Source of the DNA: Candidatus Dojkabacteria bacterium
Lineage (GTDB): Bacteria > Patescibacteriota > Dojkabacteria > SC72
Assembly (NCBI GenBank): GCA_018056375.1
Contig: JAGPFQ010000002.1
Span: 75,344-139,343 of the forward strand
DNA length: 64,000 bases
Direction: 5' to 3'
The first letter of the stretch is position 1, and each line of letters starts with the position of its first letter. The position numbers were made by a program, and so were the translations under genes. Under the pieces are notes generated by a model. It was not told the DNA's origin. It was given only the letters and a program-made list of their open reading frames with translations, and searched no databases. This document shows positions 3,085 through 52,380 of the stretch, piece after piece.

Positions 3085-3093
3085 TGGTATAAT
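3085..3093 (+). promoter_or_regulatory. Extended -10 element TGGTATAAT upstream of the LysM/M23 gene
   Basis: TGnTATAAT motif 30 nt upstream of the ATG at 3123. The same 9-mer recurs upstream of several tRNA genes in this window. Confidence 0.4.
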
Positions 3094-4445: not shown

Positions 4446-4446
4446 T

Positions 4447-4518
4447 GGGCTTATAGCTTAGTTGGTAAAGCATCGCATTCGCATTGCGAAGACACCAGTT
4501 CGATTCTGGTTGAGTCCA
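4447..4518 (+). tRNA. tRNA-Ala (anticodon CGC)
   Basis: Hand-folded cloverleaf: acceptor GGGCTTA/TGAGTCC with the G3:U70 Ala identity pair, D-stem GCTT/AAGC, anticodon stem TCGCA/TGCGA, loop TTCGCAT, T-loop TTCGATT. No encoded CCA. Confidence 0.75.
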
Positions 4519-4532
4519 TTTTAAGTAGTACG

Positions 4533-4698
4533 AGTACGGTTACCTTCGCGGTTTGTTCTTTTCTAGTAAGGACTATAACGGTTTTTCAGTGATTTTTTAA
4601 TATGCTATAAGATGAGAACTTGTAGTATGTTAAATATGTTGTCATGATGCTATATAGTTCTTTTTGTAGTAATACTTTACCGCGAAGGTAACCGTAAC
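4533..4698. mobile_element. MITE-like palindromic repeat, copy 1 (TIR ACGGTTACCTTCGCGGT ... ACCGCGAAGGTAACCGT)
   Basis: 17-bp perfect terminal inverted repeats at 4536-4552 and 4679-4695. Internal segments (gtaaggactataacgg..., cttgtagtatgttaaatatg, tagttctttttgtagtaata) are shared with copies at 22844-23019 and 24002-24177. Lies between two tRNA-Ala genes. Confidence 0.7.
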
Positions 4699-4713: not shown

Positions 4714-4722
4714 TGGTATAAT
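4714..4722 (+). promoter_or_regulatory. Extended -10 TGGTATAAT upstream of tRNA-Ala(GGC)
   Basis: TGGTATAAT 11 nt upstream of the tRNA 5' end. Confidence 0.4.
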
Positions 4723-4733
4723 AACAGAGTTCT

Positions 4734-4807
4734 GGGCCTGTAGCTCATTTGGCTAGAGCACTTCGCTGGCAGCGAAGGGGTGAGGGGTTCGAATCCCCTC
4801 AGGTCCA
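4734..4807 (+). tRNA. tRNA-Ala (anticodon GGC)
   Basis: Acceptor GGGCCTG/CAGGTCC with G3:U70, D-arm GCTC/GAGC, anticodon stem CTTCG/CGAAG, loop CTGGCAG, T-arm AGGGG-TTCGAAT-CCCCT. Confidence 0.8.
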
Positions 4808-4831
4808 CATCTAACTTTTCTTATCATCTCA

Positions 4832-6106
4832 ATGCAAAAAGAAAAGCTTCAAGACTATATATTCCCAAAAAACTTCTACTGGGGAGCAGCTACTGCTAGT
4901 CATCAAGTAGAGGGAAACAATCATAATGATTGGACAGAGTGGGAGAAATCAGAGAAAAGAGTTAAGGATTTAAAAAGCAGTGGTTTAGTTGGTAAACATG
5001 GACTTGATAACTTCATATCAGGTAGGAGTGCAGACCATTACAATAAATATAAGGAGGATTTTAAGTTAGCTAAAGAATTAGGTCATAATGCAACTAGGTT
5101 CTCCATTGAATGGTCTAGGATAGAACCAGAGGAGGGAAAGTTTAATCAAAAAGCAATAGACCATTACAAAGATGTGATAAAGACATTAAAGGAATTAGAT
5201 ATTGAACCATTTGTAACTCTTTGGCATTGGCCGATTCCAATATGGTTGAGAGATAAAGGGGGATTGAAGTCATCAGAGATGCCTAAGTACTTTGTTAGAT
5301 ATGCTAAGAAGGTTGTAGAAGCATTAGGGGATGATGTTAAATTCTGGATTGTTCTCAACGAACCAGAAGTAAATGCTGGTATGGGATATATGCTAGGAAT
5401 ATGGCCTCCACAGAAGAAAAATATCTTGCAGTACTTTAGAGTTACTTACAATCTAATGAAAGCTCACAAGCTGACATACAAGGAGGTAAAGAAGATTAAT
5501 CCTAAAGCTCAGGTTGGTATAGCAAAGCAAAATGTTTCTTTTTCTCTCAAAAGGGATACTCCTGTGAATAGGATAATTAGATGTTTGGCAAACTTCTACT
5601 GGAATCATGTATAGCTATGTTCTCTTAAGAAGTATCAGGATTTCATTGGACTAAATCACTATTTCCATTGTGTAGTAGATTATGGTTTGTATAAGAATGA
5701 TTTTAAGATAGTAAATGATTTAGGTTGGGAAATATGGCCAACTTCTCTGTATGAGTGTCTTAAAGATTTGGAGAAGTATAATAAACCGGTATATATTACA
5801 GAAAATGGTCTAGCTGATGCTAAAGATGAGAAGAGAACATGGTTCATATACGAAATGTTAAAAGGAGTTCATAAGGCAATAGAAGAAGGTATTGATGTAA
5901 AAGGATATTTGCATTGGTCTTTAATGGATAACTTTGAATGGGCAGAAGGATATTGGCCAAGATTTGGCTTAATTGAAATAGATTATGACACTCTTAAAAG
6001 AAAACCTAGAAAGTCGGCATATTTTTACAGGGATATTTGTATACATAATGGAATAGTAGCTTCAACAGTAGATAAGTACAAAAAAGAAATTGAGAAATTC
6101 TCCTAA
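4832..6106 (+). pseudogene. GH1 family beta-glucosidase/6-phospho-beta-glucosidase interrupted by a single in-frame TAG at 5612-5614
   Basis: ORFs 4832-5614 and 5687-6106 are in the same frame. The N-terminal part has the GH1 F-x-WGAATASHQVEG motif. Translation across the TAG continues ...DFIGLNHYF... and the ITENG catalytic nucleophile motif. Combined ~424 codons, a normal GH1 length. Confidence 0.7.
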
Positions 6107-21674: not shown

Positions 21675-22826
21675 ATGTTTGACAAAAAGAAAAAAGAGAT
21701 GACATTGCAAGAAGTAACTGCACTTCTTGAGCAACTTAGATTACCAACAGCACTTGTCTTTACACCTCTTAATCTTGAGTCAGAGAAAAAGAAGTTTTTT
21801 GATTCTGATACATACGAACCATATTTTAAATACAGAATAGTTAAGAATGATAATGAAAAAATTCTTGATAAACTTTCTAAGGTTGAATTAATCTCCGATG
21901 TTGATCCAAGAATTTCCAAATTCTACATTGATTTAATTACATCTAAAGCACAAGCAAATGATTTAATGTATGCTGTAGGAAATAACCAGAAAGTTACAGA
22001 GATTTCAAAAGATAGATTTGGTATTCCCTCTCCAATTCTGTTTAGGAATGCTGCTAGGGTAATGAGAGGTGTTGTAAAGAACTACCACTTAGCGAAGAGT
22101 CCTTCAAAAACAAAAGATGTGTTAGGATATGATGAGATAGTTAAGGTATTTGACGGTGTGTTTAATGAATTGGGGTTAGAAGGGTGGGCAGTAGAGAGGT
22201 CAATAAATATATCCAAAAATGGAATTAAGATTGGTGTGAAGCGAAAACAAGTACTAGTTAATGAGGAGATTCAGAGGAGTAAATTTGCATTGAGAAAATC
22301 AATTGTGCATGAAGTTGGTACACATGTGCTTAGATCTGTAAATGGAAAAAACACGGGTTTCACAGCACTTGGAAATGCTAATTTACCAGCATATCTGGAT
22401 GTTGAGGAAGGGTTGGCAACGTGGAACGAGAGTGAAATGGGGGTGTTAACAGAGGATGGTTTGAAGAAGAAAGCTGCCTATGTTTATGCAATTAAGATAG
22501 GGGAGAATATGTCATTTAGACAGTTGTACAATGCTCTTCTTGGTTCTCTACCTAAATATTCAGCTTTTAATATAGTGTATAGGGTAAAGAGGGGTTTAGC
22601 TGATACAGCTAAACCAGGTATCTATACAAAAGATATTGTGTATTTTAGAGGTTTTAGAAAAGTGTTAAAGAAACTAGGTGAGGATAAATCATTATATCCA
22701 CTTCTGTATGCAGGTAAGATCGATTTTAAGCAATGTGATTGGGTTAGAGAAGGTTTGATACCTAAAGCAAAAATAGTCCCATCTAAAGAAATGTGGAACA
22801 AGATATTTACGAAGGTTGGGATATAG
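21675..22826 (+). CDS. DUF1704 / QEGLA-motif family protein (gluzincin-like HExxH metallopeptidase fold; the eukaryotic KIAA0895/MATCAP family)
   Basis: HEVGTHVLR HExxH motif, downstream EEGLATW (QEGLA-like) motif, ~380 aa, the typical family size. Confidence 0.55.
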   Translation: MFDKKKKEMTLQEVTALLEQLRLPTALVFTPLNLESEKKKFFDSDTYEPYFKYRIVKNDNEKILDKLSKVELISDVDPRISKFYIDLITSKAQANDLMYAVGNNQKVTEISKDRFGIPSPILFRNAARVMRGVVKNYHLAKSPSKTKDVLGYDEIVKVFDGVFNELGLEGWAVERSINISKNGIKIGVKRKQVLVNEEIQRSKFALRKSIVHEVGTHVLRSVNGKNTGFTALGNANLPAYLDVEEGLATWNESEMGVLTEDGLKKKAAYVYAIKIGENMSFRQLYNALLGSLPKYSAFNIVYRVKRGLADTAKPGIYTKDIVYFRGFRKVLKKLGEDKSLYPLLYAGKIDFKQCDWVREGLIPKAKIVPSKEMWNKIFTKVGI

Positions 22827-22843
22827 AACAGAAGAAAGAAGAG

Positions 22844-23019
22844 CCAGGTTACCTTTGTCGTATACCCTTTGGTCGTAAAGACTATAACGATTTTTTATCC
22901 GATATTTAACATACTACAAGACACTAGATAAAGCTTCTAGTATGTTAAATATCGTATTAGAAGTTCAATATAGTCTTGTTGTAGTAACGATATACGGATA
23001 TACGACAAAGGTAACCTGG
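22844..23019. mobile_element. MITE-like palindromic repeat, copy 2 (22-bp TIR CCAGGTTACCTTTGTCGTATA)
   Basis: Perfect 21-22 bp terminal inverted repeats, an internal palindrome atatttaacatactacaag / cttctagtatgttaaatat, shares gtaaagactataacga and tagtcttgttgtagtaacg segments with copies 1 and 3. Ends at 23019, directly abutting the TAA (minus) stop of the gene at 23020. Confidence 0.75.
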
Positions 23020-23949
23020 TTAAATAAATGCAGTGATAATGGCTTCTGCTATATTCACAGGTTTCCCTTCAATCTTTGTTTCGTATGCTTTATATCCTGG
23101 ATGGAAACTCCACTCTTGGACTGCAGGTTTTCCATTGATATACATAAAATCAACAGCCATAAAGTCTGCATGGAGTAGGGAAGCTACTTTTTCTGCTATG
23201 GTTTTAATCTCTTCATTTGGTTCGTTGTACATCTCATATTCACCTTTACTTACTGTCATAAAACTGCCTTTTGCATATCTCTTCCATCCACCAATGATTT
23301 TACCTAATTTAACAAAAACTCTGTAATCTTCACCAGAATTAGAGAACTCTTGTAAGAAGAAGTCTGGATTTAGCTTGTATTCATCTTCTTTTTCAATCTT
23401 AAATACATTCTTCTTTATCTTTTCCTTACCATCTATTACCTCAACTCTGTTTTTACCAGTATAGTCTTTGGTAATTAGTGGAAAATCTTTTAGATAATCT
23501 CTCTCTTCTGTGTAGTTTCCATCTGTTCTGAAGTATGTATTAAAATATGGGATGTTATTTATTGAACAGAATTGTGCCATTGCAATTTTGTTGTAGTAGG
23601 GGAATCTCTTTATAGCTTCAGCATTTTGTACTAATATGTTTTTATCTGGATTCTCTTTGTTGTACTGTTCTGCGAAATCAATAATATATCTTTTATAGTG
23701 ATATTCTTGGTCATTATGTAGGGCATGTCCTCTGAATATTATATGTGAATACTCTGCAATATCCTTTCCATTAGCTGTTATTATAAACCTACCATTATTT
23801 AATATAAATTCTAATTGGTCATTGTATATGAAATCTTGTTCTATATTCCTTTTGTCTAACTCTTCTAACAGTCTTGCAGAACTTGTTGGTATATCTAGTT
23901 TCTTACCAATTTCACCTCTCTGTCTTTTATCTATGATGAGATATTTCAT
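23020..23949 (-). CDS. ATP-grasp fold ligase (possibly tubulin-tyrosine-ligase/RimK-like), bracketed by two MITE copies
   Basis: C-terminal ATP-grasp signatures DYRVFVKLGKIIGG and ADFMAVDFMYINGKPAVQEWSFHPG, 309 aa. Confidence 0.5.
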   Translation of the reverse strand: MKYLIIDKRQRGEIGKKLDIPTSSARLLEELDKRNIEQDFIYNDQLEFILNNGRFIITANGKDIAEYSHIIFRGHALHNDQEYHYKRYIIDFAEQYNKENPDKNILVQNAEAIKRFPYYNKIAMAQFCSINNIPYFNTYFRTDGNYTEERDYLKDFPLITKDYTGKNRVEVIDGKEKIKKNVFKIEKEDEYKLNPDFFLQEFSNSGEDYRVFVKLGKIIGGWKRYAKGSFMTVSKGEYEMYNEPNEEIKTIAEKVASLLHADFMAVDFMYINGKPAVQEWSFHPGYKAYETKIEGKPVNIAEAIITAFI

Positions 23950-24001
23950 ACTTTTCTTGCTCTATTAAATTATCTATCTAATTTTATCATTTTTTAGTTC
24001 T

Positions 24002-24177
24002 TCCGGTTACCTTCATCGTATATCCTTACTACAATAACACTATATCGAGTTTTACATATGATATTTAACATACTAGAAGCTTTTATTTGAACAAGAGTAC
24101 CTTGTAGTATGTTAAATTTCTACTTAAAAATGATAATAGTCTTTACTCAGAAAGAGTATACGATGAAGGTAACCGGA
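24002..24177. mobile_element. MITE-like palindromic repeat, copy 3 (inverted relative to copy 2; TIR TCCGGTTACCTTCATCGTATA)
   Basis: The reverse complement aligns along its length with copy 2. Terminal repeats are perfect within the copy. Ends at 24177, abutting the TAA (minus) stop of the gene starting at 24178. Confidence 0.75.
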
Positions 24178-25881
24178 TTATATAATTTTTATCTTTTTAA
24201 TATATCCCTTACTTCTATACCTCTTTACAATCTTCATCTCTTCTTGATTTTCAAGCTCCTTACTCACAACTAATAAATCAATATTATTAAATCCTAAACC
24301 ATCACTCTTTACAGCATCCCAATCCCTATGATGAATAATTATGCCATCTAGTAAAGCATTAACCTTAAGTGCTTCAATACCTCTCCATTTCTCTAATCCA
24401 CTATTAATCTCTAACCCATTAATTCTTAAATATCCATCCTTGTATTCTCCAACTACTTCGTTTTCAGTAAAGTATGAACCAAAGAAATTCTTCTCTCTTA
24501 ATACAGTTAGAACATCTGGTAGACTACTTCCCACTACAACAACCTTTTTTGTTTTGTTGTCTTTTAGTAATTTCTTAACAAATATATCTATTACATATGA
24601 CCTGTCTTCCCCTAATACTGGGAAGAGATTAAGGTATGCTTCAGGCATTGTGTTAACCTCGAGGATACCTCCATTCTCTTGAGTAAGAGGTTCACTAATA
24701 TCTTTACAAAGTACATCAACTCCGACAACAAATGCATGTATAGAGGAAGCTATACTCTCTGCAACATACTTAATCTCATCAGAGACCTTGTCTGTAAAGT
24801 CCTCTGTTATACCTCCTTGACTCATACTAGCTACTTTTCTTACTTGTATTTTTTCATCCTGTTTTGGAATACTCTCTAATGTAAGGTCTTGCTCTTTAAG
24901 ATAGTCGAGTAGTGGTTGATCTATCTTTATTGGTTTTAATGTATGAGTAGGGTTAGTAACATCTCTTCTGGGGTCTTTGTTCGTTTCATCTAATAATTCT
25001 TGTATAGTACTCTTACCATCACCTACGATAAAGGCAGGGATTCTTTTTGTTGCTACCTCTAACTTACCATCGATAACTAGTAGCCTGTAATCTTCTCCTG
25101 GTACTTGTTCTTGAATCATTATCTTTCTCTGCCATGCTTCTCTCTCTTTACCATCAATGGCTTTTTGTGCGAAATCAAATGCCTTCTTTGCTTCCTCTAC
25201 TGTGTTTATACCAACTACAACACCACTTCCTCCAATTAATCCTGTGGGTTTGATTACAACTGGTTTGTTGTATTCACTCCATACTTCATCTATCTGGCTC
25301 TTGTTATCTAATGTTTCCCACTTAGGGATTGGTAGACCAAGTCTTGATATCATGAGATTGGTAGACCATTTATCCTTCTGCATCTCTTTTGCTATTTTAG
25401 AATCTTTGCTAGAAGAGATAGAGAAGATAATTTCAGAGCCTTTTCCACATCCAATTGTATGATGTCTGTTGTATCCTTTCATATATCCAGGTTTATCTGT
25501 ATCTAGAATTTTATTGTCTATAATTGTGGGAGTGATTTCATAACCCAAGGTGTATGCAGAGTGGAGTACTGGGATAGTGGACATAGATGCAACTCTCTGT
25601 TTGATTAATGTTTCAACAATATATTCTCTACATTCCTCATATGATATCTTTCTTTCTGCTAGCTTTTGTAAGTATTCACTTGCTTCTCTCCAAAGAAAGG
25701 CAGTTCTTGTTTCAATGTAAAGATAGCCTTGTGTGGAGTAATATTTTTCTATAAATAGTGGGTGAAAGCTACTGATTAAATCCAAAAGTTTCTTTACTTC
25801 TTCTGTTTCTTCTATCTCAATAATGATAGTTGAGTAGGGGGATATTAAGTTTAAACCTTGTAATACTTGTACTTTTTTCAT
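24178..25881 (-). CDS. Cyanophycin synthetase (CphA) G-domain-like ATP-grasp ligase lacking the Mur-ligase-like domain
   Basis: The segment DYRLLVIDGKLEVATKRIPAFIVGDGKSTIQELLDETNKDPRRDVTNPTHTLKPIKID matches the CphA ATP-grasp core (DYR[LV]LVV...HV[IV]GDGK.TI.ELI...N.DPRRG..H...L). 567 aa versus ~870 for CphA; the C-terminal ~120 aa is not Mur-ligase-like. Confidence 0.65.
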   Translation of the reverse strand: MKKVQVLQGLNLISPYSTIIIEIEETEEVKKLLDLISSFHPLFIEKYYSTQGYLYIETRTAFLWREASEYLQKLAERKISYEECREYIVETLIKQRVASMSTIPVLHSAYTLGYEITPTIIDNKILDTDKPGYMKGYNRHHTIGCGKGSEIIFSISSSKDSKIAKEMQKDKWSTNLMISRLGLPIPKWETLDNKSQIDEVWSEYNKPVVIKPTGLIGGSGVVVGINTVEEAKKAFDFAQKAIDGKEREAWQRKIMIQEQVPGEDYRLLVIDGKLEVATKRIPAFIVGDGKSTIQELLDETNKDPRRDVTNPTHTLKPIKIDQPLLDYLKEQDLTLESIPKQDEKIQVRKVASMSQGGITEDFTDKVSDEIKYVAESIASSIHAFVVGVDVLCKDISEPLTQENGGILEVNTMPEAYLNLFPVLGEDRSYVIDIFVKKLLKDNKTKKVVVVGSSLPDVLTVLREKNFFGSYFTENEVVGEYKDGYLRINGLEINSGLEKWRGIEALKVNALLDGIIIHHRDWDAVKSDGLGFNNIDLLVVSKELENQEEMKIVKRYRSKGYIKKIKII

Positions 25882-25883
25882 AT

Positions 25884-26888
25884 CTATTCTTTTGAATTTA
25901 AATATTTATCCCTAATATATTCCATAATTGGAATAGCTACTTTAACCTGTTCACCTTTATCTACTTTGTAGTGTAATCTTAATCCTGGGTTGTAGTTAAT
26001 TTCATTGACAGCACATTCATCTGGTTTTGTAATATCTTTTGCAATGATATCTACACCTCCAAACTCTGATCCAACAGTCTTTACAGCTTTGATAGCTAAC
26101 TGTCTGTAGAAGTCGTGAGTTTCTTTTGCACACTCTTCTGTTGTTCCTCCTGTAGTAAGATTGCAGTTGTATCTTAATATCTGCTCTTTTCCTTTTTCAA
26201 CTACAGACTCTAGGTTAAGATTATCTCTCATGAGTTTGAGCATGACCTCATTATCTATTGGTATTGGTAGTAAACCTTTTTCCTTTCGTGATATATTCTC
26301 TAGTTCTATCAGCTGTCTTACTGTGTGTTCTCTATCTCCAACTACATGTGCTGCCTTTCTTCTTACGATACCAATAACTTGATTTCCTAGAACTAGAAGT
26401 CGGTAGTTTTCACCATGTATGAATTCTTCTCCTATAACTTTTTTATCATCAGAAGGTGCATGGGAAGAATCAAAAGCAATCTTAAATGCTTTCAATACCT
26501 GTTCTTCACTCTGTGGAAGGATAGATACACCTTTACCACCTAATTGTTGAGTTGGTTTAATTACTATATCCTTATACTTATCGTAGAATTTAATAGCATC
26601 CATCTCGCATGTGAGAATCTCTTGTTCTGGAACTTTTACCCCCTGTTCTTTCAACACCAAATGTGTCAAATTCTTCCTTTTACATATTGTTGTACTGGGA
26701 GTAGGGACTAATGGAGTTACTGTGTTTATAATGAACCAATGTTTGTTTTCAACAGAAAATTTTGCCATGAGACCTGGAACTAATACTTTGTAGTTGATTC
26801 CTAGAATATCTGCAGCCTCAACGTAGTAGGAGAGATGGATATTCCCAGCTATCTGAATGTATTTCTTTTTGTCTTTATCTTCCTCCAT
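25884..26888 (-). CDS. ATP-grasp ligase, CphA/RimK-like (short form)
   Basis: ENYRLLVLGNQVIGIVRRKAAHVVGDREHTVRQLIELEN resembles the CphA/glutathione-synthetase-type ATP-grasp motif, 334 aa. Confidence 0.6.
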   Translation of the reverse strand: MEEDKDKKKYIQIAGNIHLSYYVEAADILGINYKVLVPGLMAKFSVENKHWFIINTVTPLVPTPSTTICKRKNLTHLVLKEQGVKVPEQEILTCEMDAIKFYDKYKDIVIKPTQQLGGKGVSILPQSEEQVLKAFKIAFDSSHAPSDDKKVIGEEFIHGENYRLLVLGNQVIGIVRRKAAHVVGDREHTVRQLIELENISRKEKGLLPIPIDNEVMLKLMRDNLNLESVVEKGKEQILRYNCNLTTGGTTEECAKETHDFYRQLAIKAVKTVGSEFGGVDIIAKDITKPDECAVNEINYNPGLRLHYKVDKGEQVKVAIPIMEYIRDKYLNSKE

Positions 26889-26913
26889 GATGTTTTAAAT
26901 TATATTCAATATA

Positions 26914-28362
26914 TTATTTAAACGTCTTACTGGTGTCAATCAAATATCCTTTCAGATCTTCTTTTCCAAACATTACATGATACTCTAGGTCAGGAACTAC
27001 AACAGTTTCAATCTCTCTTTCTTCTCCTGTTATTCTAACTTTAATCTGTATAACAGGGTAGATATTTACAAAATCTCCTTCTACAATTTTTGCAATTCTA
27101 ACAATACCATCTTCCATTGTAAGCTTTTGAAGATTAGCATCAATATATTCCTGTGCTTCTTTAAGTGATTGGAAGTTTTTGGGAACATTCAAACTCCTAA
27201 AATATTTTGTTGTTGATATATATCCAATTCTATTCGCAAATGTCTCAGAGATTCTAGATGTTAGAACACCTGTATCCATAAAAGCTTTGGCAACTTCTCT
27301 TACTTCTTTTCCTTTTTTTCTTTTCTTCAGGTGTGTAACAAGTATTCTCTCGTTAATATTCACAACCTTTCTACCACTGATAGCCTCAATGCTTTCCTCT
27401 ACTTCTCCTCCAAAGAGACTTTTTGCCAACCTTATCCCATGCTTTATCCCTTTCACTTCAATATCCTTAACTTTTTCTAATCTCCATCTCAAACCTGCTT
27501 TGTTTGCTACCTGTATACCTAATCCGGGTCTAGCATTTAACTCAAAGACGATAGGGCCTTTCTCAGCATCAAGAGCAATATCAACACCGAGATATCCTAA
27601 CTTTGAAACTCTTTGACACTTGAGAGCTATTTCAAGAATATTATCCCAATCAGGAATTTGAATACCACTAAGAAGTTTGTTTTCTTTCAAATCTTGTGTC
27701 ATTTCAATATCTTCATATCTATCTGAGAAAAGTGAGGATGTATCCATCTGCATAGAGTAGGTGGTAATACCTGTTGCGATATCAATACCTGTACAGATAG
27801 CACCAGAATGTAGATTAGCTGTACCATCTGATCTTTTAGTAGGTATTCGAGCCATAGCCATGATTGGGACACCGTTAAAACAGATAACTCTAATATCAGG
27901 AACTCCTTTGTAGGAGTATTGTTTGAGTAAAGAGTCTGTTTTTACTCTCTCTTCAAGAATGGCAATATCTTTCTTGTTTCCCATTGAGAACCTACCTTCT
28001 AGTATATTCTCAATATGTAGAATGATGTCATTTTTTGTCATTACATTTCCACTAGGTCTAATCCATGCCATTTCACCTTTCTTTTTACCATAGAAGACAA
28101 CGATTCCATTTCCTCCTGTACCCTTGTTTGGCTTAATTACAAAACTTTTAGGTAAACTCTCCCAATCTAGAAACTTAAGTTGTAGTTTTGATCTGATTAG
28201 CTTGTAAACTTCTGGAGATTTAATTCCTTCTTTTGCTATTAATCTCTTTGTTGCAATCTTGTTGTCAACAAGTCTTTTCGCAGAAGGAGGATTGTATGGT
28301 CTAATATATTCCTGATTCCTCCTGTTTAATCCCAAAATGTCTTTGTAGTGGTTGTTAATCAT
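26914..28362 (-). CDS. RimK-like alpha-L-glutamate-ligase-related ATP-grasp fused to a C-terminal retropepsin-like (DTG) putative protease domain
   Basis: N-terminal LGLNRRNQEYIRPYNPPSAKRLVDNKIATKRL and GVPDIRVICFNGVPIMAMARI...GYLGVDIALDAEKGPIVFELNARPG (ATP-grasp); C-terminal ~170 aa contains MDTGV (aspartic protease D-T-G). 482 aa. Confidence 0.6.
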   Translation of the reverse strand: MINNHYKDILGLNRRNQEYIRPYNPPSAKRLVDNKIATKRLIAKEGIKSPEVYKLIRSKLQLKFLDWESLPKSFVIKPNKGTGGNGIVVFYGKKKGEMAWIRPSGNVMTKNDIILHIENILEGRFSMGNKKDIAILEERVKTDSLLKQYSYKGVPDIRVICFNGVPIMAMARIPTKRSDGTANLHSGAICTGIDIATGITTYSMQMDTSSLFSDRYEDIEMTQDLKENKLLSGIQIPDWDNILEIALKCQRVSKLGYLGVDIALDAEKGPIVFELNARPGLGIQVANKAGLRWRLEKVKDIEVKGIKHGIRLAKSLFGGEVEESIEAISGRKVVNINERILVTHLKKRKKGKEVREVAKAFMDTGVLTSRISETFANRIGYISTTKYFRSLNVPKNFQSLKEAQEYIDANLQKLTMEDGIVRIAKIVEGDFVNIYPVIQIKVRITGEEREIETVVVPDLEYHVMFGKEDLKGYLIDTSKTFK

Positions 28363-29035
28363 CTTTTTTTATCTTTGTTGCAGATTTAAATCTGAAATAG
28401 TCACTTAATCTTAAACCTCTAAATTGACCAATCAAGAGGTTAAATACTATCAATGCTGGAACAATCCATAGGTTATTAATTACATATGTTGCAGCAAATT
28501 CTCTTGTAATCACAAACCAACCAACTGTTGCTACGAGTAGGGTACCTATAAATGAGGTTAGTGATGATTTGAAAGACTTTTGAACTAATTGCTTAATGAA
28601 GAAGTCTGAAAGTGTTGCAATCGAAATTAATGCTAGTGGTGGAATATTTGCTATATTTTCTAAACCTAGTTTGTATTTATTAGCAATTAGTATAAATCCA
28701 GTAATTGCCATGGTTAGTAAGCAGTAGTTGATAGCGATTCTTGTGATGTAGTGCATTCTAATTTTTCGAAGCAAGTAGTGAGATAGAAGGGTGGTTAGAA
28801 TGACTACTATTGTTGTAGCCAAGCCGTATTTTAGACCGGTGTACGAGTATGCTATTGCTAAGATAATGGGGGCATATATACCGTAGCTTTTAGTACCAAG
28901 AATGTATCTAAAGATACTTACAATGGTAGCCACTATTGTAATAGCTACAAGTAATTCAATTGTTTTTTCTGGTAAACCATTTTCGATTAACCAGCTTGTA
29001 AATGGAGAGTAATTCACTGTTCTACAAAATGACAA
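28355..29035 (-). CDS. Seven-transmembrane protein (7TM module of the 7TM-transglutaminase-associated ATP-grasp systems; no transglutaminase domain)
   Basis: 226 aa with seven predicted hydrophobic helices. First gene of a co-directional, tightly spaced or overlapping five-gene minus-strand cluster with the ATP-grasp genes. Confidence 0.5.
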   Translation of the reverse strand: MSFCRTVNYSPFTSWLIENGLPEKTIELLVAITIVATIVSIFRYILGTKSYGIYAPIILAIAYSYTGLKYGLATTIVVILTTLLSHYLLRKIRMHYITRIAINYCLLTMAITGFILIANKYKLGLENIANIPPLALISIATLSDFFIKQLVQKSFKSSLTSFIGTLLVATVGWFVITREFAATYVINNLWIVPALIVFNLLIGQFRGLRLSDYFRFKSATKIKKDD

Positions 29036-29222
29036 TTTAATGTTTTTATAATAGCAGATTTATGACTTAATTATACCATTTTTAGAGAGGAAAAGATAGT
29101 AATAAGAACTGTGGTTACCTTGTGAGATTTGCCAGTGTGTATCTGGACTATTATCGTTTTTAGTCAAAAAGTTAATGTACTATAGGTGTGTTGCCTTGCA
29201 ATTTGATTAGTAACTTGGTGTA

Positions 29223-30326
29223 ATGAATGAGATGAAGAAGGTCTTGATATTTACTGCCGGCGCTGGTGCTGGACATGTATCGTGTTCTAATGCACTTAAG
29301 AATGCATTATTAGAAAAAAATAAAAACTGGGAAGTAGAAATAATCGATATGTATCTACTTTCAAAAACTACCTCTAAAAATGGTCATCTTTACTCTTTAG
29401 TTAGTCGTATACGCCTCTTTGAAGCTGTATACAATCTAATTCATATATTAGTAGATAAATATAGATGGTTTGCTAAGCTTGCTGAATTTGTTGCTCTTAG
29501 ACCAATGTACAAACCAACTTTGAAGGTCATAGAGGAATATAATCCTGATATTGTGGTGGGAAATAATGCATTGTTAATACCAGTATTAGATTGGTGTCGT
29601 AAAAGGAAGGAATTTAAATATTTTGTTACTGTTACAGATCTAATAACTGTTTGTAGATGGTGGGCTAGTGAATTAGCAGATACAGTTTTTGTACCCACAG
29701 AGGAAGCTGAGAAGACACTGAAGGCATATGTTCCTAACTGTAACATTGCACGTGACTATTTCTCTTTTAGGGAAATAAAGCCTCTCTCTAAAGAGGAGAA
29801 GATGGAAGTATTTGAGCATTTCTTTTCAGGAACGACATTTAGTCCTACAAAACCTTTGATTGTGGTAACAGGTGGTGGTTTCTCAACAAGAAAAATAATG
29901 AAGGGTATTAAAAAGTATATTGAATCTTCTCATCATCAGTTTGTAATTCTAACTGGAAGAGACAAGGTGTTGTATGATGAGTTGCAAGAGGAGTTTGCAG
30001 GAGATGATAATGTCTTGATTCTTGGCTTTACGGATAGGAATTTAGATTTGATAGCAATTGCAGATGTCGTTATATCAAAATTTGGTTCTGTTAGTGTTGT
30101 AGAGATAGAGGAGATGAACAAAAAGACCATATTTACAAAACCTGTTGGTTATCAGGAATATGGAAATGTTGAATATATTAAGAGAAACAGGAATTTTGTA
30201 TTTGTAGGTAATAACTACAGACAAGTAGTTATTGAAATAGAGAGTTTCTTAATAGAAGACTATGAACCTTCAACTGCCCATATTCAAAATGCTAATGCAA
30301 TAGTTGAATATATCTTACAAAAATAG
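29223..30326 (+). CDS. GT28-family glycosyltransferase (MGDG synthase / UgtP-like diacylglycerol glycosyltransferase)
   Basis: N-terminal KVLIFTAGAGAGHVSCSNALKNAL resembles the MGDG_synth/UgtP N-terminal motif, 367 aa. Confidence 0.55.
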   Translation: MNEMKKVLIFTAGAGAGHVSCSNALKNALLEKNKNWEVEIIDMYLLSKTTSKNGHLYSLVSRIRLFEAVYNLIHILVDKYRWFAKLAEFVALRPMYKPTLKVIEEYNPDIVVGNNALLIPVLDWCRKRKEFKYFVTVTDLITVCRWWASELADTVFVPTEEAEKTLKAYVPNCNIARDYFSFREIKPLSKEEKMEVFEHFFSGTTFSPTKPLIVVTGGGFSTRKIMKGIKKYIESSHHQFVILTGRDKVLYDELQEEFAGDDNVLILGFTDRNLDLIAIADVVISKFGSVSVVEIEEMNKKTIFTKPVGYQEYGNVEYIKRNRNFVFVGNNYRQVVIEIESFLIEDYEPSTAHIQNANAIVEYILQK

Positions 30327-32078: not shown

Positions 32079-35000
32079 ATGGAAATAACTAAAAAGCCCA
32101 ATATACCACAACAAACAGCTAGTGTTAGTAACAAGAATCAAACAGATGTTACTTCTTGGATAAAAAATAACAGTTTTACAAACTCTAAGGAGAATATGAT
32201 AAAGCTTGTTGTATTAGCACTTTTGGCTTTTCTTCTTCCGTTTTCTGTAGTTGTATCATCTGCAACATACAGTAAGTATGATTTTTTCAAAAAAGATCAG
32301 GTAACTGAAGGTGATGTATTAGGTGCTGGTGAAGCTGTTTGTCAGGAGGATAAGGTGTGTGGAATGGTTGGTTTAGGAGGTTGTGTAGCTAGAGCTGAGT
32401 GTTTGGAGAATGAGTTTGCTTGTGGGGAGGGTGCTGATATGGTTTGTTGTGATAAAGGGGAGTGTCAGGAATGTTCTCCATGTATAGATGGTTTTCAGGC
32501 AGAAGCAAATGAGTGTGGAGAGGTGACAAAGAGTTGTGAGAGTGTTGATTGTACAGGTGGAGTTTGTGGTGAGGTAGAGAGTGTTTGTTATCCGGTGAAA
32601 TATAAGGTGACTTATGGTACCAAGGAAGGAAAATGTCCTGAGCCAGAGGAGGTTTGTCCTGGAACTGCTAACAAGGCTCCTGAGTGTAGTAGTAATACTG
32701 CTACTGTACAGGAATATACTTTGATTAGTGGTACTTGTGAAGGATTTGATACTAAGACAGGGGTTTGTAATGAAGTTGTGGAAGATCTTGAAGTTGGTGT
32801 TGTTTGGGAGCCAATGGTTTTACCTAAAGGTTCTCCACTGATGGGTGCAAAGGGTGGTGCAGGGATCAGGGCAATGACAGCACCTAGTATTAGTAGTGTC
32901 TCTCCTACGAACTATTCTTTTCTAGGTGGTGGTAGTATGACAATTAATGTCTCTAATATTGTTGACACGGAACAGTTTGATATTGTTGCTTCTGGAGGTA
33001 ATCATACTTGTGGAATAAAGAGTGATGGTTGGGCCTACTGTTGGGGGTATAACTATCACGGTCAATTAGGTGATGGAACTAATACGAACTCTTCGGTACC
33101 TGTAAAAGTTGCCCAAGGTGTAATTCCAGAAGGAGTGGGATTGAAAGAAATTACAGCTGGTAGTACTCATACTTGTGTGATAGGGACGAATGATAAGGCT
33201 TACTGTTGGGGCTACGGTGCTAATGGTCGACTAGGTAATGGATCTACAAGTAATAGGAATACTCCTGTTGCAGTTAATACTACAAGAACATTTAGAGGTA
33301 TTGTTGCTGGAGGTGGTCATACGTGTGCGTTTGGTGATATAGAAATGTACTGTTGGGGATTAAATAGTTCAGGTCAATTAGGTGATGGTACTACAACTCA
33401 AAGAACAACTCCTGTTCAAGTTAATCGAGGGGATATACCTGCAGGCACTGGTCTTTATAGTCTCACTGCAGGAGATTCTCATACTTGTGTACTTGATACA
33501 GGCAATGTTATTGGAGGGGGTGGTCCCATAGTGTCTGCAGTTTCAAATGTTAAAGCATATTGTTGGGGGAATAATCAATATGGTCAAGTGGGGGATGGTA
33601 CTACAACAACCCCGAAAACGACTCCTGTAGGTGTAGATTTTATAGCTTTTGGTACACCGAGCCCTTTTAAGAAAATAAATGCAGGTGGTTATCATACTTG
33701 TGCAATAAATGGTAATGATGTTACTTACTGTTGGGGGTTGAATAACGGAGGTCAATTGGGTGATAACAGCACAAATAATGCTTCCAGACCAAAAGCTATT
33801 AATCAAGGTAATATTCCTACAGGAGAAACATTGGAAATGCTGTCTCTTGGTTTATATCACTCTTGTGCCATAGCTAGTAATGCAAAAGCATATTGTTGGG
33901 GGCAGGGTCAATATGGTCAGTTGGGGAATAGTGGCACGGGAGGATCTTATACTCCTGTAGCTGTAAGTCAAGGAGCAATTCCTACTGGGATAGGAATTGC
34001 CAATATGGGGACAGGTAGTTACCATGGTTGTGTGAGAGGTAGTAATGGAAAACTATATTGTTGGGGACAGAATACCTATGGTAAGTTAGGAGATGGAACT
34101 ACAACTACTCCAAGAACTTCTCCAGTGGCTGTTGTAGATGCTGCAGGTGCAAATACGTATGAAATAAATATAGGGAATAATACATTGACAAGAACACTGA
34201 CTCCTGGAACTACGAGTATATCTGTAAGTCCAATACTTGCACATACTCCAGGTACAGTGTCTATATATATAAAGAGGTTAACAGATAATGTTAACTCTAA
34301 CAGTGTTTCTTTTGTATATAGCAATTTCCCTGCACCGAGCATTTCTAATGTAAATCCTAATACTATTGGTCAAGCAGGAGGAGAGACAGTCAGTATTACA
34401 GGGTCTAACTTCCTTGATTACAATGTGTTTGGGAGTGTTGTTAGTATATCAGCAGGTATGTTTCATTCTTGTGCAATTCAGGAAGAAGGTGCTTTTTGTT
34501 GGGGAAGAAATAATTATGGTCAGTTAGGTGATCGTTCTATAAACCAGAGAAATACTCCTGTTCTTGTGGATAAGGGAGATATTCCTGCAGGAGTGTCTCT
34601 CAGTAGTATTAGTGTAGGGAGTTATCATACTTGTGGAGTTGGAAGTAATTATAAAGCTTACTGTTGGGGGTATAACAATGCCGGGCAGCTAGGTGATGGT
34701 GGTAGTGTAACTAGTAGTGATTCTCCTATTGAAGTTCAGACAAGTGTGACCTTTAAGAGTATCAGCGCAGGTGGTTATCATACTTGTGGCATAAGTACTG
34801 ATAATTGGGCATACTGTTGGGGACAGGGAACATATGGTAAGTTAGGTAATGGTGGTACGACTGATTCCTCAATACCAGTAGCTGTCAATCAGGGGGCTAT
34901 TCCAAGTGGAGTCTCATTGATAAGTATCAGCGCAGGTGCTAATCATACTTGTGCTATAGGCAGTGATGATTGGGCTTACTGTTGGGGACAGGGAACATAT

Positions 35001-51899: not shown

Positions 51900-52380
51900 A
51901 ACTTATGGAGTCTATTATATCTTAAAACGTGAGTCAATGCCACATAAGAGGTCTGGCCTAGGTTTGCCCTTGATTCATATATTTTTAATAATCTCCTAAC
52001 GACTTCCTGCTACTTACTTTTTGACATGCTCCTTGTGGCCTCCTGAACCAAAACTTTTACAACGACTAGAAAGTATGGGTCGGGGAGCCTTATGGAGAGT
52101 GTGAAATATGAGGATTAAAATTTTCTTAACGAGGGGCAGACCTAGGTCAGACCTTTAGAGTTACAAAAAAATGCTCTAGAAGGAGGCAGAATCATAGAGC
52201 TCTTCTTTTTAGAAAGTGGGTTCCCTCAACTCTACCCCAAGGAGCAGAGTGATTATATCTATTTGGGATCCCTAGCTCTTATTTACGGAGCTATGAAACC
52301 GCCTGTATTCTCCTAGAGCAATATATTATCCCATGAGAAAAAAATGATTGCCAATAGGTTGGGGCTTGTAGTAAAGATTC
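51900..52380. ncRNA. Candidate structured noncoding RNA region (unassigned) between the M50 protease gene and the tRNA cluster
   Basis: ~480 bp without a credible ORF and visibly GC-richer than the flanks. Contains related motifs around CCTAGG (tctggcctaggtttgccc at ~51952 and cagacctaggtcagacc at ~52137). No RNase P, tmRNA or SRP consensus could be confirmed by eye. Confidence 0.25.

What the first reader, a model, noticed from the sequence alone, without database searches (positions are those of the whole stretch)
4533..4698. New ~165-176 bp palindromic MITE-like repeat family (3 copies) with copy-specific but internally perfect terminal inverted repeats
Copies at 4533-4698, 22844-23019 and 24002-24177 share TIRs built on GGTTACC (itself a palindrome) and internal blocks (gtaaagactataacg, atttaacatactacaag / cttgtagtatgttaaatat, tagtcttgttgtagtaa). 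Within each copy the two ends are perfect complements, but a 4-nt block differs between copies (TCGC/GCGA, TTGT/ACAA, TCAT/ATGA). That is compensatory covariation, which implies either selection for a long DNA/RNA hairpin (as in REP/Correia/RUP-type elements) or a copying mechanism that templates one end from the other. No transposase is present in the window.
Basis: seen in the sequence. Interest (0 to 1): 0.7.

Follow-up and report, generated by a model that had tools for sequence, protein, structure and literature searches.

The report
Hairpin repeat family tied to RAYT transposase
The three copies are real members of a family of roughly 160-base hairpin-forming repeats in tiny "Dojkabacteria" genomes, and they look like relatives of the known REPIN repeats that a tyrosine (RAYT) transposase spreads, so they extend a known kind of element to a new bacterial group.

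Summary
The window, a CPR bacterium (Candidatus Dojkabacteria), carries three full copies at 4535-4696 (+), 22844-23019 (+) and 24002-24177 (inverted).

I collected 19 distinct copies from about 8 loci in related genomes. The termini GGTTACCTT/AAGGTAACC and two inner boxes are invariant. The 5-6 pairs next to the termini change sequence between loci but stay paired (96% of cells paired against 87% in shuffles, 0/500).

It is not a classical MITE. There is no target-site duplication and no DDE transposase, and the element is palindromic over its whole length.

In sister species, the intergenic site that holds copy 2 instead holds a single-copy HUH-Y1 gene. That gene's only NCBIfam match is the RAYT model, below its cutoff. 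It is flanked by inverted arms that recur as dispersed single arms and show weak but consistently placed similarity to this family's arms.

Compensatory change in the hairpin is already described for REPINs.

In the window's lineage the family looks old and mostly static. Copies at different loci are 50-78% identical, orthologous copies persist across species, and stems evolve about three times more slowly than loops.

Verdict: a REPIN-like system in CPR bacteria, a new variant of a known kind, of moderate interest.

The parts
4535..4696 (+). Copy 1 (locus A). Full doublet; conserved core GGTTACC...GGTAACC is 4538-4693 (156 nt). It lies between tRNA-Ala(cgc) 4446-4519 and the TGGTATAAT promoter-like box of tRNA-Ala(ggc) 4734-4808.
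   Evidence: (I9). Orthologous copies of exactly 156 nt occur in four other genomes (L005, L004, L009, L022).
22844..23019 (+). Copy 2 (locus B). Full doublet, core 22847-23016, in the convergent gap between the MATCAP-like gene (stop at 22826) and the RimK-like gene (stop at 23020). It carries an 8-nt tandem duplication (GATATACG x2) in the right arm.
   Evidence: (I2, I4). It is present or absent among strains whose RimK protein is identical. Sister species have a Y1 transposase gene at this site.
24002..24177 (-). Copy 3. Full doublet, core 24005-24174, inverted relative to copies 1 and 2. It abuts the stop codon of the ATP-grasp gene 24178-25881 (-) and lies upstream of the RimK-like gene.
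   Evidence: (I1, I10). The site is empty (15-24 nt) in more distant relatives L038 and L040, holds unrelated sequence in L007, and holds a single arm in L042/L044.
29110..29186 (+). Left-arm-only copy (singlet) in the divergent gap between the 7TM-transglutaminase gene (28355-29035, -) and a glycosyltransferase gene (29223-30326, +).
   Evidence: nhmmer E 1.6e-7; 32 bits against at most 1.6 in 200 shuffles. The same intergenic gap in L049 holds a single arm of the sister family.

Best explanation
The copies belong to a Dojkabacteria-specific family of REPIN-like elements. Each element is two inverted arms of about 75 nt joined by a short variable loop, so either DNA strand, or a transcript, folds into a hairpin of about 75 bp.

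**Shown**
- The family is dispersed over at least 8 intergenic loci.
- The terminal box (GGTTACCTT), a middle box (GACTATA) and an inner box (TTTAACATACTACAAG) are fixed in sequence. The stem segments between them are fixed only in pairing.
- Copies persist at orthologous sites across species. In those copies the stems change about three times less often than the loops, mostly through G.U intermediates.
- Copies are occasionally lost or gained, without a target-site duplication.

**Inferred**
- The arms descend from the inverted arms that flank a single-copy RAYT-like HUH-Y1 transposase in sister species. That enzyme spread them as single-stranded DNA hairpins, reading the fixed boxes by sequence and the rest by shape. 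This would explain why the stem covaries.
- Copy 2 occupies the transposase's conserved site and is probably that cassette collapsed to its two arms.
- In the window's lineage no such transposase was seen, and copies at different loci are 50-78% identical. The population is therefore old and largely immobile.
- Its hairpins are probably now kept by host-level selection, most plausibly as RNA hairpins at the boundaries of transcription units.
For: **Family and covariation.**

**No target-site duplication.** The filled allele is AGA(A/G)CC-A-GGTTACC...GGTAACC-T-GGTTAAAT and the empty allele is AGAACC-T-GGTTAAAT. The boundary is ambiguous only over 4 nt (AACC).

**Y1 gene at the site of copy 2.**
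- A 148-aa PF01797 Y1 gene sits between the MATCAP and RimK genes in contigs of five Y1 protein clusters. The four others are 61-65% identical to the first (L038/L049).
- Its only NCBIfam hit is the RAYT model NF047646 (E 3e-8 to 4e-7).
- The HUH motif and the YxRxNP tyrosine motif are conserved.
- It is flanked by inverted arms of about 65 nt that pair with each other.
- Those arms recur as single arms in four more intergenic gaps within 20 kb.

**Homology between those arms and this family.**
- A profile of the Y1-flanking arms was searched against 207 kb. Its top 7 hits (E 0.026-0.55) all fall, in register and in the correct orientation, on the left arms of GGTTACC copies.
- The family-arm profile hits the right flank of a second Y1 locus, between adk and secY, at E 0.007 in L053. 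In L046 the hit scores 5.6 bits, reached by 0 of 200 shuffles. That flank shares TACCTT, TCAATTTCTCT and GACTATAT with F-type copies.
- L049 also carries a half copy of the GGTTACC family itself (E 1.9e-5).

**Old and static, with constrained stems.**
- Variable fraction of paired against unpaired columns: 14% vs 48% (A), 6% vs 22% (C), 14% vs 39% (D), 1% vs 9% (F).
- Element identity is about equal to, or slightly above, 4-fold-site identity in the neighbouring genes.
- The length is exactly 156 nt in all five locus-A orthologues, while the flanking spacers vary in length.

**Transcribed-strand signal.** G.T-type arm mismatches lie on the transcribed strand 33:14 over six loci (binomial p 0.004).

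**Literature.** REPINs are inverted doublets with compensatory changes in the hairpin, and RAYTs are single-copy, vertically inherited and flanked by them (PMC3116915; PMC5581495).
Against: - No Y1 gene lies in the window, and I could not scan the rest of this genome.
- No Y1 gene was found flanked by canonical GGTTACCTT termini. Each arm-to-arm similarity is individually marginal (E 0.007-0.5).
- The Y1 proteins score 30-34 bits against a curated RAYT cutoff of 80.
- The only Y1 gene found on a contig that carries this family (L017) is 33% identical to the others and is flanked by a different, GC-rich repeat.
- The arms lack the short GC-rich palindrome and the GTAG tetranucleotide of classical REPs.
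- Copy number is low: 3-4 exact-pattern hits per representative genome and 3.5 copies in 64 kb.
- No conserved flank tetranucleotide, as an IS200-type mechanism would predict, precedes the copies.
- Locus D lies between two divergent promoter-like boxes, so an RNA role is not expected there, yet that copy is conserved too.
- The G.U excess could come from the strong strand-biased mutation implied by the GC skew rather than from selection on RNA.
Confidence: 0.6

Rival explanations
1. It is a structured RNA element that the host uses, such as a 3'-end hairpin, a transcription insulator or terminator, or an RNase III site. On this reading its repetition reflects function rather than mobility, and the nearby Y1 genes are coincidental.
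For: - Copies sit 3-20 nt after stop codons or after a tRNA, and just before TGnTATAAT promoter-like boxes of the next gene.
- Stems are about three times more conserved than loops in orthologues, and changes pass through G.U.
- G.U-type mismatches favour the transcribed strand 33:14.
- The forward strand of locus A folds 17-24 kcal/mol better than its complement.
- Canonical terminators are scarce in the scanned 11.5 kb of the window (3 found; shuffles give means of 3.7 and 1.7).
- Terminal perfect stems of 18-21 bp are within the size generally cited for an RNase III substrate, which is my own knowledge.
Against: - No Rfam family matches.
- No T-run follows the hairpin.
- Locus D lies between two divergent promoter-like boxes and should not be transcribed, yet it is conserved.
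- The element's orientation matches transcription at 4 loci and opposes it at 2-3.
- Half copies and single arms exist.
- Copy 2 is dispensable among strains of one species.
- Invariant sequence boxes inside a duplex, and homologous arms around Y1 genes, are not explained.
- Strand-biased mutation could mimic the G.U signal.
Confidence: 0.17
2. It is a deletion derivative of an IS200/IS605-type insertion sequence (a palindrome-associated transposable element). A multi-copy TnpA mobilises it, rather than a domesticated RAYT.
For: - The Y1 proteins belong to Pfam PF01797, which covers IS200-like TnpA.
- Their weak PDB matches are to IS200/IS605-family transposases.
- The copy 2 allele difference is seamless, without duplication, which is the IS200/IS605 pattern (mechanism summarised in PMC3116915).
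Against: - The Y1 gene stays at one conserved site across contigs of five Y1 protein clusters while diverging to 61-65% identity. That points to vertical, single-copy behaviour rather than an active IS.
- NCBIfam reports only the RAYT model and no IS200/IS605 transposase model.
- No tnpB gene is present.
- The left flanks of the copies share no target tetranucleotide.
Confidence: 0.12
3. It is a classical MITE: a cut-down DDE-transposase insertion sequence with terminal inverted repeats, moved in trans and creating target-site duplications.
For: The element is short and non-coding, has invariant 9-bp termini in inverted orientation, is dispersed in intergenic DNA, and shows presence/absence between strains.
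Against: - There is no direct duplication at the only filled/empty pair; the central base is A on one side and T on the other.
- The flanks of the other copies share no duplicated bases.
- The whole element, not just its ends, is palindromic.
- Arm covariation is not expected for transposase-binding terminal repeats.
- No DDE transposase occurs in the window or in any of the 54 loci examined (gene tables).
Confidence: 0.05

Closest known systems
REPINs (REP doublets forming hairpins) with their RAYT transposases: Pseudomonas fluorescens GI-GIII, E. coli REP/TnpA-REP (Bertels & Rainey 2011, PMC3116915; Bertels et al. 2017, PMC5581495)
   Same: - Two inverted arms plus a spacer fold into a long hairpin.
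- The end regions are highly conserved, while the rest is conserved only in length and pairing, with compensatory changes.
- The elements are intergenic, create no target-site duplication, and excision is slightly asymmetric at the ends.
- Both singlets and doublets occur.
- They persist vertically at orthologous sites.
- The partner is a single-copy HUH-Y1 gene flanked by inverted copies of the repeat.
   Different: - Arms are about 75 nt and AT-rich, with three separate sequence boxes. Classical REPs are 20-40 nt, GC-rich palindromes with a 5' GTAG.
- Copy number is low (about 1-3 per 60 kb).
- Copies at different loci are only 50-78% identical, so there is no young 'master' population.
- The Y1 protein is far below the curated RAYT score.
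- The host is a CPR bacterium with a very small genome.
- No Y1 gene was seen with canonical GGTTACCTT arms, or in the window.
Correia / NEMIS elements of Neisseria (reviewed in Delihas 2011, PMC3184786)
   Same: - Palindromic intergenic repeats of about 100-160 bp that are often co-transcribed with neighbouring genes and can affect mRNA stability.
- Present or absent between close strains.
   Different: - Correia elements are classed as MITEs.
- Correia elements carry promoters and an IHF site. Here the internal TTAAAT-N17-TATAGT match is weak (8 of 12), and the promoter-like boxes that match the consensus best lie outside the element.
- From my own knowledge, Correia elements make a TA target duplication and are near-identical within a genome. 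This family does neither.
ERIC sequences of Enterobacteriaceae (127-bp imperfect palindromes; PMC3184786)
   Same: A whole-length imperfect palindrome, found in transcribed intergenic regions and thought to act through RNA structure.
   Different: ERIC-type elements are described with terminal repeats, target duplications and flanking TA. No Y1 transposase link is known for them.
IS200/IS605 insertion sequences and their non-autonomous derivatives
   Same: A Y1 HUH transposase family that acts on single-stranded hairpins and inserts and excises seamlessly, without duplication.
   Different: From my own knowledge, those elements have short, different hairpins at each end, a fixed target tetranucleotide, and are multi-copy and horizontally mobile. 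None of these was seen here.

Membership tests
REPIN / RAYT system | Two copies of the repeat in inverted orientation, separated by a short spacer, predicted to fold into one hairpin | tested here: met
   All 19 full copies fold this way. z-scores are -10 to -12 for the window copies, and the consensus structure has 96% of cells paired.
REPIN / RAYT system | Compensatory changes keep the hairpin while the stem or spacer sequence drifts | tested here: met
   The five subterminal pairs show 3-5 pair types and none is broken in 19 copies. The covariation score is 0.315 against 0.129 in shuffles, 0/500. There is an in-place GC-to-AT swap at locus A. Described as common in REPINs (PMC3116915).
REPIN / RAYT system | A single-copy RAYT (HUH-Y1) gene in the same genome, flanked by the same repeat in inverted orientation | tested here: inconclusive
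   There is no Y1 gene in the window, and the rest of the genome could not be scanned. Sister species have a Y1 gene at the site of copy 2, and another between adk and secY. Both are flanked by inverted arms with marginal but consistently placed similarity to the family. The Y1 gene on a contig that carries this family (L017) is flanked by a different repeat.
REPIN / RAYT system | The Y1 protein is a RAYT rather than an IS200 TnpA | tested here: inconclusive
   Its only NCBIfam hit is NF047646 (RAYT), but at 30-34 bits against a cutoff of 80. The HUH and YxRxNP motifs are present. It stays at the same site across contigs of five Y1 protein clusters, at 61-65% identity. No phylogeny against the RAYT groups was made.
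REPIN / RAYT system | Each REP unit is itself a short GC-rich palindrome with a conserved 5' tetranucleotide (GTAG in classical REPs) | tested here: not met
   The arms are about 75 nt and AT-rich, with no GTAG. Only the 7-nt GGTTACC is self-complementary. The second repeat type in these genomes, GGGGCAGACCTAGGYCAGACCT, does fit this description.
REPIN / RAYT system | Strong over-representation: tens to hundreds of similar copies per genome | tested here: inconclusive
   I found 3 full copies and 1 half copy in 64 kb, 3-4 exact-pattern hits per representative genome, and 1-3 per 60-140 kb contig. Copies at different loci are only 50-78% identical. No whole-genome count with a tolerant model was possible.
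MITE (non-autonomous DDE transposon) | A direct target-site duplication flanks each insertion | tested here: not met
   The filled and empty alleles of copy 2 differ by exactly [A GGTTACC...GGTAACC], with no duplicated flank. The bases next to the ends are A and T. The flanks of the other copies share no direct repeat.
MITE (non-autonomous DDE transposon) | A parent insertion sequence with the same terminal inverted repeats and a transposase | tested here: inconclusive
   None was found in the window or in the 54 loci examined (and the gene tables). Genome-wide pattern scans with long gaps were not possible.
Known RNA families (Rfam 15) | A match to a curated covariance model at its gathering score | tested here: not met
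   Only tRNAs reach the gathering score in the window. At E up to 10, the elements hit only generic long-hairpin microRNA precursor models, at 17-27 bits against cutoffs of 100-195.
Integron attC sites | Imperfect palindromes with RYYYAAC...GTTRRRY cores, all in one orientation downstream of cassettes, with an integrase nearby | tested here: not met
   The termini do not fit the core consensus, which I took from my own knowledge. Copies 2 and 3 flank one gene in opposite orientations. There is no integrase in the window.

The most novel reading that the evidence does not exclude
Copy 2 may be a direct snapshot of how a hairpin doublet is born. In sister species the MATCAP|RimK gap holds [arm]-RAYT-[inverted arm]. 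In the window's clade the same gap holds [arm]-13-nt loop-[inverted arm]. In some strains even that has been removed, leaving a 9-bp palindrome.

If this is right, REPIN-type doublets can arise by collapse of the transposase cassette itself. A CPR lineage would then have lost the enzyme but kept its orphaned hairpins under stem-preserving selection at transcription-unit boundaries. That would amount to a selfish repeat domesticated as a structural punctuation mark in a minimal genome.
Probability: 0.25. Interest if true: 0.6.

Novelty: new variant of a known kind. Interest (0 to 1): 0.4.

Why it matters
REPIN/RAYT systems are discussed as long-lived, vertically inherited replicators inside bacterial genomes, studied mainly in Pseudomonas and enterobacteria. 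A related system in Dojkabacteria would extend that picture in two ways.

- Hairpin repeats and their Y1 partner would be shown to persist even in very small genomes.
- Comparing clades would allow a test of what happens to the repeat population when the enzyme is absent. One clade keeps the transposase and has single arms; the other has hairpin doublets and no transposase was seen.

Practically, these 160-nt hairpins sit between transcription units of housekeeping genes and tRNAs. They should be annotated rather than mistaken for novel RNA genes.

Tried and rejected
1. **Internal promoter.** The invariant TTAAAT-N17/18-TATAGT in each arm looked like an outward-facing promoter. It matches only 8 of 12 consensus positions and is essentially not flagged: the scan picks up only the TTAAAA-N17-TATAGT variant in copy 1's left arm (9 of 12). 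The scan also finds fewer sites than in shuffled sequence. The promoter-like boxes that match the consensus best are TGnTATAAT boxes outside the element. Dropped.
2. **Intrinsic terminator.** No T-run follows any copy.
3. **Orientation rule relative to neighbouring genes.** It held for the first 4 loci but failed at F and G.
4. **Target-site preference.** The filled/empty pair of copy 2 is probably a deletion. The outgroup L007 and the RAYT-bearing species have the site occupied, so it says little about the original target. No shared flank motif was found.
5. **Clean empty site for copy 3 in the closest genome.** That genome (L007) instead has 266 nt of unrelated structured sequence there.
6. 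**Direct profile match of the full element to the arms flanking the L038-type Y1 gene.** Not significant (E 0.2-3). Only the reverse search and the adk|secY locus gave usable signals.
7. **Other sources.** The viral contig scan found nothing. Literature searches for Dojkabacteria or Patescibacteria with these terms gave nothing relevant.
8. **Chance hits.** Five metagenome pattern hits (L008, L013, L015, L021, L023) were chance matches.

Full report
**1. What the window is**

The window encodes ten tRNAs, leuS, argS, uvrA, rho, radA, nusG, ribosomal proteins, mur ligases and mreBC, at about 35% G+C. Exact-pattern searches place it in Candidatus Dojkabacteria, a CPR lineage. MAG DUTP01 is 91-97% identical in protein in this region.

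**2. The observation**

The three copies sit where stated.
- GGTTACCTT occurs 7 times against 0.48 expected.
- Each copy folds into a single long hairpin, with z-scores of -10 to -12.
- The copy-specific 4-nt blocks are as described. The perfect terminal stems are 18, 21 and 21 bp.

Two corrections apply. Copy 3 is inverted relative to copies 1 and 2. A fourth, left-arm-only copy lies at 29110-29186. No Rfam family matches.

**3. The family**

Pattern scans of GTDB genomes and JGI metagenomes, followed by nhmmer, gave 19 distinct full copies. They fall into these loci:

| Locus | Position |
|---|---|
| A | between tRNA-Ala(cgc) and tRNA-Ala(ggc); five genomes |
| B | between the MATCAP-like and RimK-like genes (convergent) |
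| copy 3 site | between the ATP-grasp and RimK-like genes |
| C | between ybeY and pth |
| D | between ychF and a transglutaminase-like gene (divergent) |
| E | upstream of frr |
| F, G | further loci in other metagenome contigs |

- **Invariant parts:** GGTTACCTT/AAGGTAACC, GACTAT/ATAGT(C) and TTTAA...TTAAAT.
- **Covarying part:** the next 5-6 pairs show 3-5 pair types each with none broken. Overall, 96.3% of cells are paired against 87.0% in shuffles (0/500) and 35-44% with slid partners.
- **Divergence:** copies at different loci are 50-78% identical.

**4. Evolution in place**

- Orthologous copies differ mainly in unpaired columns. The variable fraction of paired against unpaired columns is 14% vs 48% (A), 6% vs 22% (C), 14% vs 39% (D) and 1% vs 9% (F).
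- At locus A, one pair changed from G-C to A-T, and ten of the twelve variable pairs toggle between a Watson-Crick pair and G.U.
- Element identity is about equal to, or slightly above, 4-fold-site identity of the neighbouring genes.
- All five locus-A copies are exactly 156 nt, while the flanking spacers vary in length.
- G.T-type arm mismatches lie on the transcribed strand 33:14. The strong GC skew offers a mutational alternative to selection.
- Orientation relative to the neighbouring genes is not fixed.

**5. Gain and loss**

- **Copy 2.** Among contigs whose RimK protein is identical to the window's, copy 2 is present in five loci (L025, L026, L029, L032, L033) and absent in five (L027, L028, L030, L031, L034). 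The difference is exactly [A GGTTACC...GGTAACC], ambiguous over a 4-nt AACC. There is no direct duplication, and a 9-bp palindrome, AACCTGGTT, is left behind. More distant genomes have this site occupied, so the empty allele is probably a deletion.
- **Copy 3.** Its site is empty in L038 and L040. It holds a single arm in L042 and L044, a degenerate copy in L035, and unrelated sequence in DUTP01.

**6. The transposase link**

- **A Y1 gene at the site of copy 2.** In L038/L049, L042-45 and L050-52, the MATCAP|RimK gap holds a 148-aa Y1 gene (PF01797).
  - It is 61-65% identical between these contigs.
  - Its only NCBIfam hit is the RAYT model, below the curated cutoff.
  - The HUH and YxRxNP motifs are intact.
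- **Its arms.** Inverted arms of about 65 nt flank it and pair with each other. In L049 the arm recurs as single arms in four more intergenic gaps within 20 kb. One of those gaps is the one that holds the window's half copy.
- **Similarity to this family.**
  - A profile of these arms places its top 7 hits in 207 kb, in register, on the left arms of GGTTACC copies.
  - A second Y1 locus, between adk and secY (L046, L053), is flanked by arms that the family profile detects: E 0.007 in L053, and 0 of 200 shuffles reaching the score in L046. These arms share three motifs with F-type copies.
- **A second, different system.** A contig carrying three family copies also encodes a different Y1 gene (L017 3733-4215), flanked by GC-rich repeats. 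The window holds a pair of those repeats at 51945-52157 with no gene between them.

**7. Comparison with known systems**

REPINs are inverted doublets with compensatory hairpin changes and asymmetric excision (PMC3116915). RAYTs are single-copy, vertically inherited and flanked by REPINs (PMC5581495).

The present family works like that. It differs in four ways:
- It has long AT-rich arms with three sequence boxes.
- Its copy number is low.
- It shows no young master sequence.
- The link between the enzyme and this exact repeat is unproven.

Classical MITE features, a target-site duplication and a DDE parent element, were tested and not found.

**8. Verdict**

The best reading is an old REPIN-like population, probably orphaned in this lineage, whose stems remain under selection (confidence about 0.6).

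Noticed in passing
window 51945-51969 and 52123-52157: An inverted pair of a second, GC-rich repeat (GGGGCAGACCTAGGTCAGACCT type) with only about 153 nt between the two units. The right unit is 97% identical to the right flank of a Y1 transposase gene in L017 (3733-4215), including that gene's last codons. It looks like a transposase-less remnant of a second RAYT/REP system.
   Followed up: partly
window 4832-5614 and 5687-6106: A glycosyl hydrolase family 1 gene is split into two ORFs (260 and 139 aa). Relatives L004, L005 and L009 have one intact ORF of 424 aa at the same place, so it is probably a pseudogene in this genome.
   Followed up: partly
window 21675-29186: Copies 2 and 3 and the half copy all lie in or at the edges of one conserved cluster: a MATCAP-like peptidase, four ATP-grasp/RimK-like ligases and a 7TM-transglutaminase protein. 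In related genomes this cluster's intergenic gaps are the ones that gain and lose small genes and repeats.
   Followed up: partly
L035 1852-1990 and 3578-3720; L007 5763-6028: A second structured non-coding module of about 150-270 nt, with hairpins TACTCAC..GTGAGTA and AGCCTAG..CTTTGTA..TACAAAG..CTAGGCT. It sits next to degenerate element copies in L035. By eye, it appears to replace copy 3 in DUTP01, in the opposite orientation. I did not identify it.
   Followed up: no
L009 185-820; L012 3243-3563: Extra genes are inserted immediately beside the left end of the element in some genomes. A NUDIX gene lies between tRNA-Ala and the locus-A copy in L009, and a 106-aa ORF with no Pfam match lies beside the locus-D copy in L012.
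   Followed up: partly
window 4716-4724 and 3085-3093; L003 1366-1376 and 1548-1556: Perfect or near-perfect extended -10 boxes (TGGTATAAT, TGTGGTATAAT) lie just upstream of tRNA and protein genes. In L003 they are only 7-11 nt from the start codons, which suggests leaderless or very short-leader transcripts in these organisms.
   Followed up: no
L052 983-2503: Here the Y1 transposase gene has the opposite orientation relative to the RimK gene compared with all other loci. This fits an inversion of the cassette between its inverted flanking arms.
   Followed up: no
window 32079-37205: A 1708-aa protein with many RCC1 repeats and a fibronectin type III domain, in a stretch of higher G+C (0.40 against about 0.35). 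That is unusual for such a small genome.
   Followed up: no
window 22982-22997: Copy 2 carries an 8-nt tandem duplication (GATATACG twice) in its right arm that is absent from the orthologue in DUTP01. It creates a bulge in the hairpin.
   Followed up: yes
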